IMG/VR virus record: IMGVR_UViG_2693429768_000001
Coordinates: 1-64,000 of that record
DNA length: 64,000 bases
Reading direction: 5' to 3' (one strand)
From: a virus
Lineage: Duplodnaviria; Heunggongvirae; Uroviricota; Caudoviricetes
The position numbers were made by a program, and so were the translations under genes. The notes below the pieces were generated by a model, which did no database searches, was not told the DNA's origin, and was given only the letters and a program-made list of their open reading frames with translations. Numbering within the stretch: position 1 is the first letter of the stretch; each line of letters begins with the position of its first letter. Positions 11,043 to 53,910 of the stretch are shown in pieces.

Positions 11043-11690
11043 TTACCATTCATAGGGTAAATTAAGCGCTTTTAAACCTTGCTGAAAGGTATTAAGTGAG
11101 CCGTTCTTTTGTTGTTCCATTTGTTCGCGTGCCGCTTTCTCATACTGCTCCATCCGTTGGTTATACTCTTGCAATTCCTCTGGTGAGAGGTTTCCCATTG
11201 GGGAGTTTGTACCCGGCCCCCTGGCCCGCTCTTCAAGCGTACCCTGCACGTTTTGATGGCGCATTCCTGGGGCATTTCTGATTGAGTCAATGCCATTTCT
11301 TACAACGTCTTCTTTATTAACGGCATTGCTCGCCACCAGCACACCCCAGCTAGGAATAGCAAAATCAGGAGCGGTTTCGCATGCCTTTACCATATAATCG
11401 AAAGAGCTTCGATTGATCTCGTTTGCGTCGGGATTTAACAGGCGAGAATATTGATATTTAGCATTTTCGTTGGTTGCGACTTTATACAGTTCTTGCTGCA
11501 CCATCGCTTCAGAAAGTTTAAGGCGTTTCATATCTGACAGTAACTTCTTGCGCATGGATTCGTCTTGACTGACAGCAAAGCCGTAAACGTGCCCAAGGTA
11601 TTTCGTATAATCGGTACAAATCTCCTTTACGCTTGATGCTGCATTAACAGTCCCAGCCATAAATAATAACGGTAGTAATAGTTTTCTCAT
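11043..11690 (-). CDS. Secreted protein with signal peptide (Sim-like); C-terminus shares a motif with Sit
   Basis: Start moved to ATG 11690 (RBS GGTGAGG; MRKLLLPLLFMAGTVNAAS); motif PGMRHQNVQGTLEERARGPGT matches Sit GMRREVVQGTLEERARGKGT. Confidence 0.55.
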   Translation of the reverse strand: MRKLLLPLLFMAGTVNAASSVKEICTDYTKYLGHVYGFAVSQDESMRKKLLSDMKRLKLSEAMVQQELYKVATNENAKYQYSRLLNPDANEINRSSFDYMVKACETAPDFAIPSWGVLVASNAVNKEDVVRNGIDSIRNAPGMRHQNVQGTLEERARGPGTNSPMGNLSPEELQEYNQRMEQYEKAAREQMEQQKNGSLNTFQQGLKALNLPYEW

Positions 11691-11786
11691 TATAACCTCA
11701 CCTGCCTTATAACTCATTTAGGGTACATATTTTCGCCTTTAAAAAAAAGAGGTTATTAGATCCAATTGTGTATTTATTAAGCATAT

Positions 11787-11803
11787 AATGCTCTAATAAA
11801 TTT
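11787..11803 (+). promoter_or_regulatory. C1-operator-like site AATGCTCTAATAAATTT overlapping a TATAAT -10 (immI promoter, Op51-like)
   Basis: Read directly; matches the recalled P1 C1 operator consensus ATTGCTCTAATAAATTT with one mismatch. Confidence 0.7.
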
Positions 11804-11949
11804 GTATTTTTAAGTCGCGAATGCTATCTTTTCGCATCATATTGACCTTTTAATCGTTCAGGCTTATAGTTCCGCCGTCGTAGCAAATTCTGCGACCGGG
11901 TTTAGCAGCCTGAATGTTAGTGCGGACAACCGCAGATATCCGATATTGC

Positions 11950-12060
11950 GGTATTTTTGTGTCCGTAAAACCGCGTTACGCCCAAATTATGGTGGGGCGT
12001 GATGGGGAGGCTTCGGCCTGCTGGTTTCACTAACGCCAGTCTGCTAACCCCGTCACGTCC
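11950..12060 (+). ncRNA. Possible c4-like antisense RNA region of immI (boundaries approximate)
   Basis: Between operator-promoter and icd/ant; short segments (GTCTGCTAACCCC) complementary to downstream GGGTAGCAGGTTG / TTTAGCAGC; inferred from P1 immI organisation. Confidence 0.3.
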
Positions 12061-12117
12061 TGCCACCTGTTTAGCAGCGGGTAGCAGGTTGTTAAACCTG
12101 TTAGTGAGGCCGTAACT

Positions 12118-12339
12118 ATGGTTAATGCCAATCCTTGCGCACGCCAAGAATTCATCTGGCGTTTCTATTCCTGTAAAAAACACCACTATCACTTCGTTAT
12201 CGCAGCAACAGAAGACGAAGCACGCTCTCAATTGCCTGATGGCCCCTGCATTTTTACTGCCCGTTTTTCAACTAACTCGCGCAATTCACTTAGTTACTGG
12301 AGCCTCCCCTTCTCTGCCGACGTTCAGGGGGGTTTATGA
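12118..12339 (+). CDS. icd-like small ORF overlapping the ant start, 73 aa
   Basis: ORF track; stop overlaps ant ATG at 12336. Confidence 0.45.
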   Translation: MVNANPCARQEFIWRFYSCKKHHYHFVIAATEDEARSQLPDGPCIFTARFSTNSRNSLSYWSLPFSADVQGGL

Positions 12340-13370
12340 AAACACCTCTCGTCACCCGTAATGAAATAGCCGAAGCGATCGCCTTGCATACAATCTGTAT
12401 GCCGACACGGGAGATCCCCGGCGCAATTGCCAACTATTTCATGATAACCAGGCGTTTTTATACCCGAACAGATAAGGCTGTGATCAACAGGCTACTGATA
12501 GCCGAGATCAGGGATTATTTGATTGAACAAGGACGTCTACGTTACGCAACAGTGGCAGCAGAAATGAGAAAGGAGGCACATAGAATGACCGGTAATAATT
12601 TAAATGTTGAAAAACCAGCACCTGTTGCTTCAGCTACGCCAGCACCAGCCCTGAATGTCATCCCCAACACCGGAGACACAATCGACAGCCAAACATTGTT
12701 GAAGATGGTCAATGAGGCACGGAAATTATGTAGCGAAAAACCAGTTCGCAACAATGATTTCATTGCCAGAGTTAAGGATGAGCTTGAAGGAGAAACCTAC
12801 GAAATTTTCGTAGGTCAAAAAAACGGCGCAGAAATAGATATTATAACCATGACCTACAAACAAGCCCTGCGAGTTGCCGCGCGCGAGTCAAAAGCGGTCC
12901 GCCGTTCGCTGATCGACAAACTGGAAGAATTACAGCAGGCAAACTCCCCTACCCCATCGATCCCCCAAACATTACCAGAAGCCCTACGCCTGGCTGCCGA
13001 GTTGGCAGAACAGAAAATGCATCTGGAACAACAGCTGGTGGCCGCAGCACCTAAAGTCGATTTTGCCGACCGGGTATCAGTGGCTAATGGAATCCTGATC
13101 GGTAACTTTGCAAAGGTCGTTGGACTTAAGCAAAACGCCCTTTTCTCATGGTTGCGCCAGAACGGCATTCTCATGGCTTTTGGTGCGCGCAAAAACGTAC
13201 CGCGCCAGCAGTACATTAACGCCGGGTATTTCACGGTGAAAGAAGTGGTGCTGGATGATGAAAATGGCTATCAGATACGGCTGACGCCACAATTAACGGG
13301 TAAAGGCCAGCAGTGGTTAACTCGCAAGCTACTTGATGCTGGTTTGTTAAAACCAGTAGCAATAGGTTAA
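12336..13370 (+). CDS. ant: Antirepressor Ant, 344 aa
   Basis: ATG 12336; C-terminal ~130 aa paralogous to KilA C-terminus (ALRLAAELAEQK...GKGQQWL); immI position. Confidence 0.7.
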   Translation: MKTPLVTRNEIAEAIALHTICMPTREIPGAIANYFMITRRFYTRTDKAVINRLLIAEIRDYLIEQGRLRYATVAAEMRKEAHRMTGNNLNVEKPAPVASATPAPALNVIPNTGDTIDSQTLLKMVNEARKLCSEKPVRNNDFIARVKDELEGETYEIFVGQKNGAEIDIITMTYKQALRVAARESKAVRRSLIDKLEELQQANSPTPSIPQTLPEALRLAAELAEQKMHLEQQLVAAAPKVDFADRVSVANGILIGNFAKVVGLKQNALFSWLRQNGILMAFGARKNVPRQQYINAGYFTVKEVVLDDENGYQIRLTPQLTGKGQQWLTRKLLDAGLLKPVAIG

Positions 13371-13534: not shown

Positions 13535-14335
13535 ATGCAACAAACATTCAATGCGGATATGAATATATCAAACCTTCATCAAAATGTCGATCCTTCAACC
13601 ACTCTGCCCGTTATTTGTGGTGTTGAAATTACGACCGACCGCGCTGGCCGTTACAACCTTAATGCTCTACACAGAGCGAGCGGACTCGGTGCCCATAAAG
13701 CGCCAGCTCAATGGCTAAGAACGCTGTCAGCCAAACAGCTCATCGAAGAGCTTGAAAAAGAAACTATGCAGAATTGCATAGTTTCGTTCGAAGGCCGTGG
13801 CGGCGGCACTTTTGCCCATGAATTGCTCGCAGTGGAGTACGCAGGCTGGATTTCTCCCGCGTTTCGGCTGAAGGTAAACCAGACATTTATCGACTATCGA
13901 GCCGGAAGATTACAACCTGCTATTCCGAAGAGCCTCCCAGAAGCTCTCCGTTTGGCTGCTGACCTGGCAGAGCAAAAGCAACGGCTGGAGCAAAAAATGC
14001 TGATGGATGCACCTAAAGTCGAATTCGCCGAACGCGTTGCTACCGCCAGCGGGGTTCTAATCGGCAACTATGCCAAAGTGCTCGGCCTGGGCCAAAACTA
14101 TCTCTTCACCTGGTTGCGTGATAACGGAATTCTGATCGCAACCGGTGAACGCAGGAACGTCCCCAAACAAGAATACATATCCCGTGGGTATTTCACCCTT
14201 AAAGAAACCGTGATCGATACAAGCAATGGAAGCAGGATTTCTTTCACGACTCGTATAACCGGCAAAGGTCAGCAGTGGCTGATGAAGCGATTGCTTGATG
14301 CTGGTGTGCTGGTACCTGTCGCGGCAACGCGCTAA
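13535..14335 (+). CDS. kilA: KilA (KilA-N domain plus antirepressor-like C-terminal domain), 266 aa
   Basis: Size identical to recalled P1 KilA; immediately upstream of repL. Confidence 0.7.
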   Translation: MQQTFNADMNISNLHQNVDPSTTLPVICGVEITTDRAGRYNLNALHRASGLGAHKAPAQWLRTLSAKQLIEELEKETMQNCIVSFEGRGGGTFAHELLAVEYAGWISPAFRLKVNQTFIDYRAGRLQPAIPKSLPEALRLAADLAEQKQRLEQKMLMDAPKVEFAERVATASGVLIGNYAKVLGLGQNYLFTWLRDNGILIATGERRNVPKQEYISRGYFTLKETVIDTSNGSRISFTTRITGKGQQWLMKRLLDAGVLVPVAATR

Positions 14336-51673: not shown

Positions 51674-52189
51674 ATGGCGCTAACACACCGCGAACTCTGT
51701 CAGATTGCGTACAAGTTCCTTAAGCGCAACGGGTTCAAGGTTTGTTTTCATGACCGCTTTATAGCTGTAACCAGTACCGGAGAACAGCCAGATGCTATGG
51801 GATTCAGAAATTCAGCATCATGCCTGATAGAGGCGAAGTGTTCTCGTGCTGACTTGTTGGCAGATAGAAAAAAGCGTTTTCGTAAAAATCCGTCTCTTGG
51901 AATGGGCGACTGGCGATTCTTTATTAGTGAGCCGGGAATTATTTCAATTGAGGATTTACCACCTGGCTGGGGATTACTTCACGTTGTTAACGGAAGAGTA
52001 CGGAAAGTACATGGGTGGCCCAAGGGTAATTGCTGTTGGGGTAATCCTGACGATAAGCCATTTACTGGAAATAAGCAGGTTGAATGCGATTACATGTTAT
52101 CTGCATTAAGGCGCATGGAGTTGAGAGGGCACCTTAATGAAATATATGACGGTGTAATTGTTAATAAGAAAGAAGGAAACGCGGCATGA
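51674..52189 (+). CDS. Putative PD-(D/E)xK-fold nuclease-like protein, 171 aa
   Basis: Start ATG 51674 (RBS AAAGGAGAG); EQPDAMGF...CLIEAKCS motif. Confidence 0.4.
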   Translation: MALTHRELCQIAYKFLKRNGFKVCFHDRFIAVTSTGEQPDAMGFRNSASCLIEAKCSRADLLADRKKRFRKNPSLGMGDWRFFISEPGIISIEDLPPGWGLLHVVNGRVRKVHGWPKGNCCWGNPDDKPFTGNKQVECDYMLSALRRMELRGHLNEIYDGVIVNKKEGNAA

Positions 52190-52572
52190 TCACTATTACC
52201 AAAGAGCGACTACTGACAATCAAGCAGTGGCGCGAAACATACGGACCTGATAGCAACGTTGTACTGCCAGCAGAAGAAGCGGAAGAACTGGCGCGGATTG
52301 CGCTGGCATCACTGGAAGCAAAACCAATAGGTGCATTCCACATTGCAGAACAGCAAGTTGACGGCACAAGTGACTACCTCAAGGATGGAGAATGGCCTAT
52401 TGATAATGGAATTATTGAGGTCTACGCCGCTCCACCCGTTCCAGTAGTACCGGAAGAAAAACCAATGCCTAATCCTCTTAGCATGTACGCGGTTGATGCT
52501 GTTGCCGCTATTGCAGAGGTGAGAGGCTGGAATGCCTGCCGCGCGGCTATGCTTCATGGGAAAGGAAAGTGA
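52186..52572 (+). CDS. Hypothetical protein, 128 aa
   Basis: N-terminus shares LARIaLASLEA block with the 301-aa protein at 53005. Confidence 0.4.
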   Translation: MITITKERLLTIKQWRETYGPDSNVVLPAEEAEELARIALASLEAKPIGAFHIAEQQVDGTSDYLKDGEWPIDNGIIEVYAAPPVPVVPEEKPMPNPLSMYAVDAVAAIAEVRGWNACRAAMLHGKGK

Positions 52573-53004: not shown

Positions 53005-53910
53005 ATGACCACTATTACCAGAGAACAGGCACAGAAAATTATTGAAGCAGCCGATGAGGTTATTAGTGCGCTGGCCGGAACTAACGAGGATGTTCACCCT
53101 GGTAGCGATAACATGCTACGCCTGTGGGATGACCTGAATGACCGTTACGCGCCGCCGGAAGTTGTGCGTGAGCTGGCGCGTATCGTGCTGGCATCGCTGG
53201 AAGCAGAACCAGTTGCTTATATTTTCAAACATCCGGCCGGGAAATTATTCTGGGCTTTAACGGATGAAAGCAATAAAGAGCAAGCGGACGTTATTCCTGT
53301 TTATGCTGCCGCGCCTGCGTCGGTTGTGCCGGATGATGCATCAGGGGCGCTTGCTTATGCTTACAAAGAGCTTACGCCTGAGATTATGCGCGGTCATATC
53401 GCTGTATTCGAGCGATATGGAATAGCCCCAAACGATAGCATTACCACAATTCAGGCACTGCGAATCGCGCTGGATGGCATAGAGCGGAGCGACGCCATGC
53501 TTCATGGTGCCGAAACTGTAAGCCAAACTTACAAGTTGCCTCCCCTGTCATCCAGCGAAGTAAACGACGCGGCATGGAAATTACACAACATGCTGACTGA
53601 ACACGGCCTGCTAAATGGGCGTCAGTTCAACAATCTGAAAGGTTGCTTCTATGAGGCATTAAAGGTCGCAATGCGCAACTATCCGGCAACTCCGGATAGT
53701 TGGATAAGCTGTAGTGAGCGAATGCCGGATACCAAAACAGCCGTTCTTGTTGCCGTGGAGTTTGACAGGAAAGGTGACTGGCGAATGAAATGGGCGACTT
53801 ACATCCCGGGGCATCCTGACGCTAATGATGGGTGGATAATTCCTGGTGCGTCGTGGAAACCGTCACACTGGATGCCGCTACCAGAACCGCCGCAGGAGGT
53901 GAATCAATGA
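53005..53910 (+). CDS. Hypothetical protein, 301 aa (lambdoid early-region type)
   Basis: ATG 53005 after GAGG. Confidence 0.45.
   Translation: MTTITREQAQKIIEAADEVISALAGTNEDVHPGSDNMLRLWDDLNDRYAPPEVVRELARIVLASLEAEPVAYIFKHPAGKLFWALTDESNKEQADVIPVYAAAPASVVPDDASGALAYAYKELTPEIMRGHIAVFERYGIAPNDSITTIQALRIALDGIERSDAMLHGAETVSQTYKLPPLSSSEVNDAAWKLHNMLTEHGLLNGRQFNNLKGCFYEALKVAMRNYPATPDSWISCSERMPDTKTAVLVAVEFDRKGDWRMKWATYIPGHPDANDGWIIPGASWKPSHWMPLPEPPQEVNQ

What the first reader, a model, noticed from the sequence alone, without database searches (positions are those of the whole stretch)
11043..11690. Secreted Sim-like protein shares a motif with the injected Sit protein
The signal-peptide protein near immI contains PGMRHQNVQGTLEERARGPGT near its C-terminus; the Sit-like protein contains GMRREVVQGTLEERARGKGT (about nt 5390-5460, minus strand) plus a second SPGMRK copy. 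A periplasmic protein carrying a copy of a motif from the injected transglycosylase suggests a decoy or competitor mechanism for superinfection exclusion. I am not aware of this being described.
Basis: partly seen in the sequence, partly recalled or inferred. Interest (0 to 1): 0.6.

Follow-up and report, generated by a model that had tools for sequence, protein, structure and literature searches.

The report
Secreted prophage protein copies tape-measure motif
A P1-like prophage makes a secreted protein that carries a conserved 35-45 residue copy of a segment of the phage's own injected tape-measure/cell-wall-cutting protein, which suggests, without proving, that it blocks entry of related phages by molecular mimicry.

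Summary
[quoted passage not shown] The core is 16/20 identical and the extended match is 24/48 (BLASTP E 4e-9). Family profiles also match (hhalign 98%, E 1.7e-13), as do reciprocal PHROG cross-hits. Synonymous sites in the block are saturated, so this is old homology under purifying selection, not a recent DNA copy or low complexity.

The block is kept in a homologue only 42% identical overall. In Sit it lies in a conserved island just after the SLT domain. A profile search of 1.84 billion proteins found the motif only in these two families.

The "Sim-like" label needs correcting. The protein is unrelated to SimC, the gene P1's record annotates as superimmunity. It is the intact form of a gene that survives in P1 only as the 52-aa simA remnant. 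It sits in the hypervariable cassette between pmgC and c4/icd/ant.

The decoy or competitor idea is plausible: both proteins would be periplasmic, the locus has an exclusion precedent, and the motif is selected. It remains untested. Structure predictions were uninformative, no partner is known, and I found no publication describing the motif.

The parts
11043..11690 (-). Full-length SimA-family gene (215 aa; phrog_3933). An alternative upstream ATG at 11717 gives 224 aa.
   Evidence: ORF; Shine-Dalgarno GGTGAGG before the ATG at 11690; same start annotated in vB_EcoM-Ro157c2YLVW gp35; phrog_3933 E 1.4e-135; aa 1-48 are 85% identical to P1 simA.
11640..11690 (-). Predicted Sec signal peptide MRKLLLPLLFMAGTVNA, with cleavage after VNA. 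There is no lipobox.
   Evidence: Read directly from the sequence. Conserved across the family, and the mature part has two invariant Cys (C25, C104), consistent with a periplasmic protein.
11331..11639 (-). Conserved, predicted all-alpha N-terminal domain of the SimA family (about aa 18-120). No known fold was assigned.
   Evidence: Alignments A2/A4/A6. The AF2 model has low confidence (pLDDT 42). No PDB, NCBIfam or PADLOC hit. PTPlike_phytase scores 26.5 bits, below the cut-off of 27.
11187..11330 (-). Sit-like block in the secreted protein (aa 121-168). The core NAPGMRHQNVQGTLEERARGPGT is at about 11208-11273.
   Evidence: N139, G142, R144 and Q146 are invariant across the whole family (M143 in all but one member, which has V). 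The block is kept in the 42%-identical homologue P0151.
11046..11186 (-). Variable C-terminal tail (predicted helix). Other family members have a different tail here or none.
   Evidence: C-terminal types seen. The 163-aa variant ends directly after the motif (RARGPGVAP*).
4888..8280 (-). sit: tape-measure protein with a lytic transglycosylase domain (1130 aa).
   Evidence: phrog_2533; named as the P1 tape-measure protein in PMC9024508 and PMC12810830.
5710..6039 (-). SLT lytic transglycosylase domain of Sit (aa 748-857).
   Evidence: Pfam PF01464 E 2.7e-27. AF2 pLDDT is 80-95 for this part.
5374..5505 (-). Motif block in Sit (aa 926-969: NAVGVNDLVNKFMNGRGMRREVVQGTLEERARGKGTATAAGNV). It lies inside the conserved island aa 901-960 (nt 5401-5580).
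   Evidence: In the conservation profile across Sit proteins 52-57% identical, windows 901-960 score 0.73-0.88, against 0.47 upstream and 0.17-0.49 downstream.
5239..5289 (-). Second, partial copy of the motif in Sit (GIDGLFDKLRNSPGMRK, aa 998-1014). It is present only in E. coli P1-type Sit.
   Evidence: It is absent from the Klebsiella, Salmonella and Cronobacter Sit proteins.
10505..10981 (-). Downstream partner gene: a 158-aa YfjT-like protein with a signal peptide (phrog_3429).
   Evidence: It is 53% identical to the L004 gene that carries a precomputed PF27224 YfjT hit. Homologues follow SimA-family genes in most loci.
11787..11803 (+). C1 repressor operator (Op51/Oc4 equivalent) between the SimA-family gene and the divergent c4-icd-ant operon.
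   Evidence: One mismatch to ATTGCTCTAATAAATTT. Same position as Oc4 in P1.
11864..12070 (+). immI RNA elements: C4 targets a1/b1 (11864-11916) and C4 antisense RNA (11985-12070).
   Evidence: Rfam RF03163 at 55.5 bits and RF01695 at 70 bits.

Best explanation
**What it is.** The gene encodes an intact member of the "SimA family". This is a small periplasmic protein encoded in the hypervariable accessory cassette between the tail operon (pmgC) and the immI region of P1-like phage-plasmids. It consists of an all-alpha N-terminal domain, probably disulfide-bonded, followed by a flexible segment. That segment is an old, selectively maintained copy of the module lying just downstream of the lytic-transglycosylase domain of the tape-measure protein Sit.

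**How it probably works (inferred).** Sit is expelled into the periplasm when a P1-like phage infects. The resident SimA-family protein presents the same linear module there. It would either occupy whatever that module must engage (a host envelope component or another ejected phage protein) or co-assemble with the incoming Sit module. Either way, DNA entry of P1-like phages is blocked, giving homotypic superinfection exclusion.

**Shown versus inferred.**
- Shown: the homology, its conservation, the selection on it, its restriction to these two families, and the genomic context.
- Inferred: export to the periplasm, expression in lysogens, and the exclusion function.
For: - **The shared block is significant** at pair, profile and family level.
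- **Purifying selection.** Between the window's two copies, pS is 0.74 and pN 0.17. Between distant SimA-family members, pS is about 0.8 and pN 0.21-0.25. Eleven of the 16 identical residues use different codons.
- **The block is the best-kept part of the C-terminal half.** This holds in a homologue only 42% identical overall. The block is retained in five different C-terminal architectures, including one that stops right after it.
- **In Sit the block is a conservation island** flanked by variable linker, about 70 residues after the SLT domain. It must therefore reach the periplasm with that domain.
- **The motif is private to these two families** among 1.84 billion representative proteins.
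- **SimA-family proteins look exported.** They have a signal peptide and two invariant cysteines.
- **The locus has the right character.** In P1 it holds simC (annotated as superimmunity), and in P7 it holds two other exported proteins. It is a recognised variable region (PMC9603915).
- **Essentiality fits.** P1 simA, simB and simC are non-essential for lytic growth, whereas sit is essential (PMC10695390).
- **No other cassette protein of this locus resembles Sit**.
Against: - There is no experimental link between any SimA-family protein and exclusion. P1 itself has only a 52-aa remnant, so the classical sim data do not apply.
- The partner of the Sit module is unknown.
- AF2 gives low confidence for the motif in both proteins (pLDDT 31-47). 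This fits a disordered linear motif but gives no positive support.
- Several family members (Klebsiella, Cronobacter and some Salmonella types) keep only N-x-x-G-M-R-x-Q and have lost VQGTLEERARG.
- Cognate SimA/Sit pairs are not clearly more alike than non-cognate pairs. SimA-family proteins keep RARG where their own Sit has RAYG.
- The predicted promoter abuts a C1 operator, so expression in lysogens is not assured.
Confidence: 0.38

Rival explanations
1. Shared docking module, no interference. The block targets both proteins to the same envelope structure (peptidoglycan, an inner-membrane or a periplasmic protein). Each then does its own job there. The SimA-family protein would be an envelope "moron" with another role, such as lysogen fitness or defence against unrelated phages, together with its YfjT-like partner.
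For: Both proteins are expected in the periplasm. The motif is conserved in both families. The SimA-family gene is nearly always followed by a secreted YfjT-like gene, which suggests a two-protein function of its own. Cognate co-variation is weak.
Against: No known peptidoglycan- or membrane-binding family matches the block. The motif occurs in no other envelope protein among 1.84 billion representatives, which is odd for a general docking module. Sharing one binding site would in any case cause competition.
Confidence: 0.22
2. Direct, Spackle-like inhibitor. In Sit the block contacts the neighbouring SLT domain or mediates Sit self-association. The free copy in the SimA-family protein binds the incoming Sit itself and blocks cell-wall digestion or channel assembly.
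For: The block starts about 70 residues after the SLT domain, inside a conserved island. From general knowledge, not tested here: periplasmic inhibition of a tail lysozyme by a phage-encoded protein has a precedent in T4 Spackle acting on gp5.
Against: In the AF2 model of Sit 731-1000 the motif does not dock on the SLT domain. The post-SLT region has pLDDT 33-47. There is no sequence relationship to Spackle or to known lysozyme or transglycosylase inhibitors.
Confidence: 0.15
3. Evolutionary relic. A fragment of sit was captured long ago by the neighbouring cassette gene, or the reverse. It now serves only a structural role inside each protein, and the two have no functional connection.
For: The two genes lie about 3 kb apart in a recombination-prone, mosaic region. 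Some family members have lost most of the block.
Against: Synonymous sites are saturated while the residues are kept, in both families and across genera. The block survives in five different C-terminal contexts and in a 42%-identical homologue. AF2 does not place it in a folded core.
Confidence: 0.15
4. Chance or low-complexity resemblance.
For: The block is short and rich in G, R and E.
Against: E 4e-9, and z of about 10 against shuffles. hhalign E 1.7e-13. Conserved in homologues of both families.
Confidence: 0.01

Closest known systems
P1 Sim (SimC) superinfection-exclusion protein
   Same: Same locus, between pmgC and c4, and also N-terminal signal-peptide-like. P1's record annotates simC as superimmunity. 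From my own knowledge of Kliem and Dreiseikelmann 1989 and Maillou and Dreiseikelmann 1990, which were not readable here: the processed Sim protein blocks a step after adsorption.
   Different: No sequence similarity. SimC has no resemblance to Sit.
P1 SimA (52-aa ORF, 'putative superimmunity accessory function')
   Same: Homologous: 85% identity over aa 1-48, with the same position and orientation.
   Different: P1 SimA is a truncated remnant with no domain body and no motif. The window carries the intact 215-aa gene.
Exclusion proteins that target tape-measure or ejection proteins: HK97 gp15, TP-J34 Ltp, P22 SieA (PMC10883804, PMC3952083)
   Same: Prophage-encoded envelope proteins proposed or shown to block DNA entry at the tape-measure or ejection-protein step.
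   Different: Those are membrane proteins or lipoproteins, and none is reported to contain a copy of its target's sequence. This protein is soluble and periplasmic with no lipobox, and the proposed principle is motif mimicry.
T4 Spackle (gp61.3)
   Same: A small secreted periplasmic phage protein acting against the cell-wall-degrading tail component of a superinfecting relative.
   Different: Spackle binds the gp5 lysozyme domain and shares no sequence with it. Here there is no homology and no evidence of binding to the SLT domain.
Competitive recruitment by linear-motif mimicry in the periplasm (colicin E9 TolB box mimicking Pal; my own knowledge)
   Same: A short epitope in a disordered segment competes for a periplasmic partner by copying another protein's binding sequence.
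   Different: Different proteins and direction (an invader mimicking a host protein). No host protein carries the present motif.

Membership tests
P1 Sim/SimC exclusion protein family | Sequence homology to SimC | tested here: not met
   BLASTP best E = 10.
P1 Sim/SimC exclusion protein family | Encoded between pmgC and c4 in immI, transcribed towards pmgC | tested here: met
P1 Sim/SimC exclusion protein family | Blocks P1 infection after adsorption when expressed | not testable with these tools
   Needs plating, transduction and DNA-entry assays.
SimA family (phrog_3933; NCBI 'simA domain protein') | Homology across the signal peptide and N-terminal domain, including CTDYTKYLGH, IPSW and two invariant Cys | tested here: met
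   phrog_3933 E 1.4e-135; alignments; tblastn to P1 simA.
SimA family (phrog_3933; NCBI 'simA domain protein') | N-x-x-G-M-R-x-Q core after the N-terminal domain | tested here: met
   N139, G142, R144 and Q146 are invariant in all nine diverse members; M143 is M in eight and V in one.
Lipoprotein or membrane-anchored exclusion proteins (Ltp, HK97 gp15 type) | Lipobox Cys at +1 or transmembrane segments in the mature protein | tested here: not met
   The cleavage region is VNA|ASS with no Cys. I saw no hydrophobic segment after the signal peptide when reading the sequence.
T4 Spackle-like tail-lysozyme inhibitors | Binds and inhibits the muralytic domain of the incoming tail protein | not testable with these tools
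   No homology in Pfam, NCBIfam, PADLOC or PDB. The single-chain AF2 model of Sit shows no docking of the motif on SLT.
PTP-like phytase domain (PF14566) | Score above the gathering threshold and the catalytic HCX5R loop | tested here: not met
   26.5 bits against a cut-off of 27, covering only profile positions 47-132 of 158. Neither Cys is followed by R at +6 (CTDYTKY, CETAPDF).
Known anti-phage defence systems (PADLOC-DB) | Match to any defence-protein model | tested here: not met
   No hit at E <= 0.1.

The most novel reading that the evidence does not exclude
P1-like prophages use a secreted mimic of a linear module of their own tape-measure protein to jam the periplasmic step of genome delivery by related phages. 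If so, the shared 35-45-residue module marks the still unknown interaction that P1 needs to move its DNA from the tail tip across the periplasm and inner membrane, and the motif peptide could be used as bait to find that partner.
Probability: 0.3. Interest if true: 0.75.

Novelty: new variant of a known kind. Interest (0 to 1): 0.55.

Why it matters
How P1, and myophages generally, get DNA across the periplasm and inner membrane after tail contraction is poorly understood. Sit was not resolved in the recent P1 cryo-EM work (PMC12810830).

A conserved, family-private linear module that sits beside the transglycosylase domain and is copied into a secreted prophage protein gives a concrete handle. 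The motif can be mutated in sit, the secreted protein can be expressed, and the peptide can be used as bait.

If the mimicry idea holds, it adds a new principle, target-sequence mimicry, to superinfection exclusion. It would also help explain why the sim locus of P1-like phage-plasmids is a cassette hotspot.

Independently of mechanism, the work re-annotates P1 simA as the stump of a larger gene and defines the SimA family: about 270 PLSDB plasmids carry the gene or its remnant.

Tried and rejected
- **AF2 of the secreted protein** with a 12-sequence alignment gave mean pLDDT 42. That is too poor for a fold search, so none was run.
- **AF2 of Sit 731-1000** modelled the SLT domain confidently. 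The motif region had pLDDT 33-47 with no docking.
- **Database searches.** PDB sequence searches with the Sit C-terminus and the SimA-family profile found nothing. NCBIfam and PADLOC found nothing useful. The Pfam PTPlike_phytase hit is sub-threshold and lacks the catalytic loop, so I rejected it.
- **Word-indexed protein searches.** The search with Sit aa 900-1060 returned only fragments and frameshifted pieces. The full-length Sit search listed only relatives at least 88% identical. I took diverse Sit sequences from fetched loci instead.
- **Co-variation test** of cognate SimA/Sit motif pairs was inconclusive.
- **Tape-measure protein of the Pantoea element** carrying the most divergent SimA-like gene could not be reached.
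- **Other sim-locus cassette proteins.** I tested whether SimC, SimB, P7 Upf50.0 and Upf50.5, or the SH3-domain proteins also mimic Sit or another virion protein. None does.
- **Bookkeeping error.** In one search the rows labelled "SimA L014" are actually the L014 Sit block, because the regex picked the wrong ORF. I ignored them.
- **Literature.** Searches found no mention of the motif or of a tape-measure mimic. The P1 genome paper (PMC523184) is not held.

Full report
**1. Where we are**

The window is a P1-like (Punavirus) phage-plasmid. Region 10400-12400 is matched end to end only by phage vB_EcoM-Ro157c2YLVW (97% identity). P1 covers 47% of it and P7 covers 35%.

Comparing the annotated records shows why. 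The stretch between pmgC and the immI genes c4-icd-ant is a cassette site.
- P1 carries simC, simB and simA there.
- P7 carries upf50.0 and upf50.5.
- The window and Ro157c2 carry two other genes.

A survey of P1-like phage-plasmids lists simABC among eight hypervariable regions (PMC9603915).

In the window, immI is confirmed by three features:
- C4 antisense RNA at 11985-12070
- its a1/b1 targets at 11864-11916
- a C1 operator with one mismatch at 11787-11803

**2.

*The secreted protein.* The ORF at 11043-11717 (minus strand) has 224 codons. The ATG at 11690 follows a GGTGAGG Shine-Dalgarno sequence and is the start annotated in Ro157c2. The N-terminus MRKLLLPLLFMAGTVNA|ASS looks like a Sec signal peptide.

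*Sit.* Sit (4888-8280, minus strand, 1130 aa) has an SLT domain at aa 748-857. It is regarded as the P1 tape-measure protein (PMC9024508). It was not resolved in the recent cryo-EM structures (PMC12810830).

*Significance of the match.*

| Test | Result |
|---|---|
| BLASTP, secreted protein aa 130-177 (224-codon ORF numbering) vs Sit aa 926-969 | 24/48 identical, E 4e-9 |
| Core 20 residues | 16 identical |
| Smith-Waterman score | 102; 1000 shuffles of Sit gave mean 40.4, sd 6.0, max 80 |
| PHROG cross-hits (phrog_3933 and phrog_2533) | E 7e-8 and 5e-6, exactly over the block |
| Profile-profile, five diverse secreted proteins vs seven diverse Sit segments | 98% probability, E 1.7e-13 |
| All-vs-all blastp of window ORFs of at least 70 aa | one of only three cross-protein similarities |

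The SPGMRK second copy in Sit (aa 1009-1014) is also present. It is part of an internal repeat: GVNDLVNKFMNGRGMRR and GIDGLFDKLRNSPGMRK.

**3. Old and selected, not a recent copy**

- The DNA of the core is 41/60 identical. Of the 16 identical residues only 5 use the same codon.
- By Nei-Gojobori counting on a 23-codon block, the window's two copies have pS 0.74 and pN 0.17.
- Between distant members of the secreted family, pS is about 0.8 and pN 0.21-0.25. Between Sit proteins, pS is 0.69-1.0 and pN 0.08-0.22.
- Synonymous sites are saturated while the peptide is kept.

**4. What the secreted protein is**

- It is not related to SimC.
- tblastn shows that P1's 52-aa simA is 85% identical to residues 1-48 and then stops. 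P1 simA is therefore the stump of this gene, with simB and simC inserted behind it. This explains the database name "simA domain protein".
- In PLSDB, 267 plasmids carry the gene or the stump, and 84 match at least 80% of its length. Hosts are Escherichia, Salmonella, Klebsiella and Shigella.

The family has four recurring elements:
- a conserved signal peptide
- a conserved N-terminal domain with two invariant cysteines
- a core N-x-x-G-M-R-x-Q in which N, G, R and Q are invariant
- a variable tail

At least eight C-terminal types exist:
- motif plus a helical tail (the window type)
- ending directly after the motif, at 163 aa
- motif plus a short tail (Salmonella)
- motif plus a Cys...Cys hairpin
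- a degenerate motif plus the hairpin
- two types where only GMR[HQ]Q is left and the hairpin follows directly
- a divergent type (P0151; also in a Pantoea contig) that is 42% identical overall yet keeps NAPGMRHQAVKGSMAERARGDGT

**5. The block within Sit**

I compared Sit proteins 52-57% identical to the window's, from Klebsiella, Salmonella and Cronobacter elements.
- Residues 901-960 form a conservation island, with window scores of 0.73-0.88.
- The stretch just before it scores 0.47. Residues 961-1035 score 0.17-0.49. The C-terminal 95 residues are conserved again.
- All of these proteins carry KF[ML][NS]xxGMRxxVVQGTLx[ED]RA[RY]GxG.
- The second copy occurs only in the E. coli type.
- tblastn finds the post-SLT region only in P1-like phages.

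**6. Exclusivity**

I searched 1.84 billion representative proteins with a profile built from four secreted proteins plus the Sit segment. It returned 17 proteins, all of them SimA-family members, Sit proteins or fragments of these. The Sit hits are partly by construction, because a Sit segment was in the profile. The informative result is that there is no third family, and in particular no host protein.

**7. Structure and annotation searches**

- AF2 of the secreted protein was poor (pLDDT 42, all-alpha).
- AF2 of Sit 731-1000 modelled the SLT domain well but left the motif region at pLDDT 33-47 with no docking.
- PDB, NCBIfam and PADLOC gave nothing.
- A PTP-like phytase hit is sub-threshold and lacks the catalytic loop.
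- These results fit a flexible linear motif but do not reveal a mechanism.

**8. Mechanism**

*Shown:* two proteins of one phage share a private, selected module. One carries a muralytic domain next to it, so it must act in the periplasm. The other has the hallmarks of an exported protein. It sits in a cassette site whose P1 occupant is annotated as superimmunity, and whose alternatives are also exported proteins. P1's genes at this site are dispensable for lytic growth, whereas sit is essential (PMC10695390).

*Inferred:* the resident protein interferes with the incoming Sit module. It could compete for the module's partner or co-assemble with it, giving exclusion of P1-like phages. I put this at about 0.38.

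*Rivals:*
- a shared docking module without interference (0.22)
- a Spackle-like direct inhibitor of Sit (0.15)
- a functionless relic of fragment capture (0.15)
- chance (0.01)

*Weaknesses of the leading idea:*
- no experiment on any intact family member
- family members that retain only the GMR core
- no clear cognate co-variation; the secreted proteins keep RARG where their own Sit has RAYG
- a predicted promoter that abuts the C1 operator, so expression in lysogens is uncertain

**9. Comparison with known systems and novelty**

Exclusion proteins aimed at tape-measure or ejection proteins are known: HK97 gp15, TP-J34 Ltp, P22 SieA and T4 Spackle/Imm. So the kind of function is not new. 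A secreted protein carrying a copy of its presumed target's sequence is not described in anything I could find.

I therefore rate it a new variant of a known kind, with moderate interest of 0.55. The function remains hypothetical.

Noticed in passing
window 11560-11717 (-); L001 2883-3041 (P1 simA): P1's annotated simA (52 aa, 'putative superimmunity accessory function') is the 5' stump of the full-length 215-aa gene that is intact in this window. simB and simC appear to have replaced the rest of it.
   Followed up: yes
window 10505-10981 (-): A 158-aa signal-peptide protein (phrog_3429) follows the SimA-family gene. Its homologues carry a precomputed PF27224 YfjT hit and follow SimA-family genes in most loci examined (28-53% identity). 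This suggests a conserved two-gene secreted module of unknown function.
   Followed up: partly
window 4888-8280 (-), N-terminal part of Sit; P0029-P0148: Many close Sit relatives are 1229-1307 aa, against 1130 aa here. The consensus shows a roughly 100-aa tandem duplication near the N-terminus (DLKGERVATVDPVSRSVSALNRTIENSRPDFV...KRLNLGDVSR twice). Tape-measure length polymorphism could mean tail-length variation among P1-like phages.
   Followed up: partly
window 11072-11296 (-), alternative frame inside the SimA-family gene: Several database proteins (P0004, P0007, P0008, P0016, P0019, mostly from Logan assemblies) are frameshifted versions of the SimA-family protein that read into this overlapping frame, just before or upstream of the motif. 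These are probably assembly errors or pseudogenes. Each has only 1-4 member sequences, against 906 for the intact form.
   Followed up: partly
L086 9509-10528 (Candidatus Pantoea alvi contig PQJV01000018.1): The most divergent SimA-like gene (42% identity, motif kept) lies in a different context. It is divergent from a PAAR-like 94-aa gene and near spanin-like genes, with no C4 RNA nearby. The family is therefore not confined to the P1 immI locus. The element's tape-measure protein could not be retrieved.
   Followed up: partly
window 52186-52572 (+) and 53005-53910 (+): Two ORFs share 41% identity over 64 residues (E 9e-6). This is one of only three cross-protein similarities in the window. 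The third is the known KilA/Ant1 KilAC-domain pair at 13535-14335 and 12336-13370.
   Followed up: no
L009 10089-11147; L010 10628-11662: In some P1-like plasmids the same cassette site additionally holds a roughly 350-aa protein with a bacterial SH3 domain. That is another envelope- or cell-wall-associated candidate at this hotspot.
   Followed up: no
window 5239-5289 (-): The second GMR copy in Sit exists as two alleles across E. coli P1-like elements (LFDKLRNSPGMRKNNAPEPAS and LYDKLINARGMRSNNSPQPAS). The allele shows no evident correlation with the type of sim-locus cassette.
   Followed up: partly
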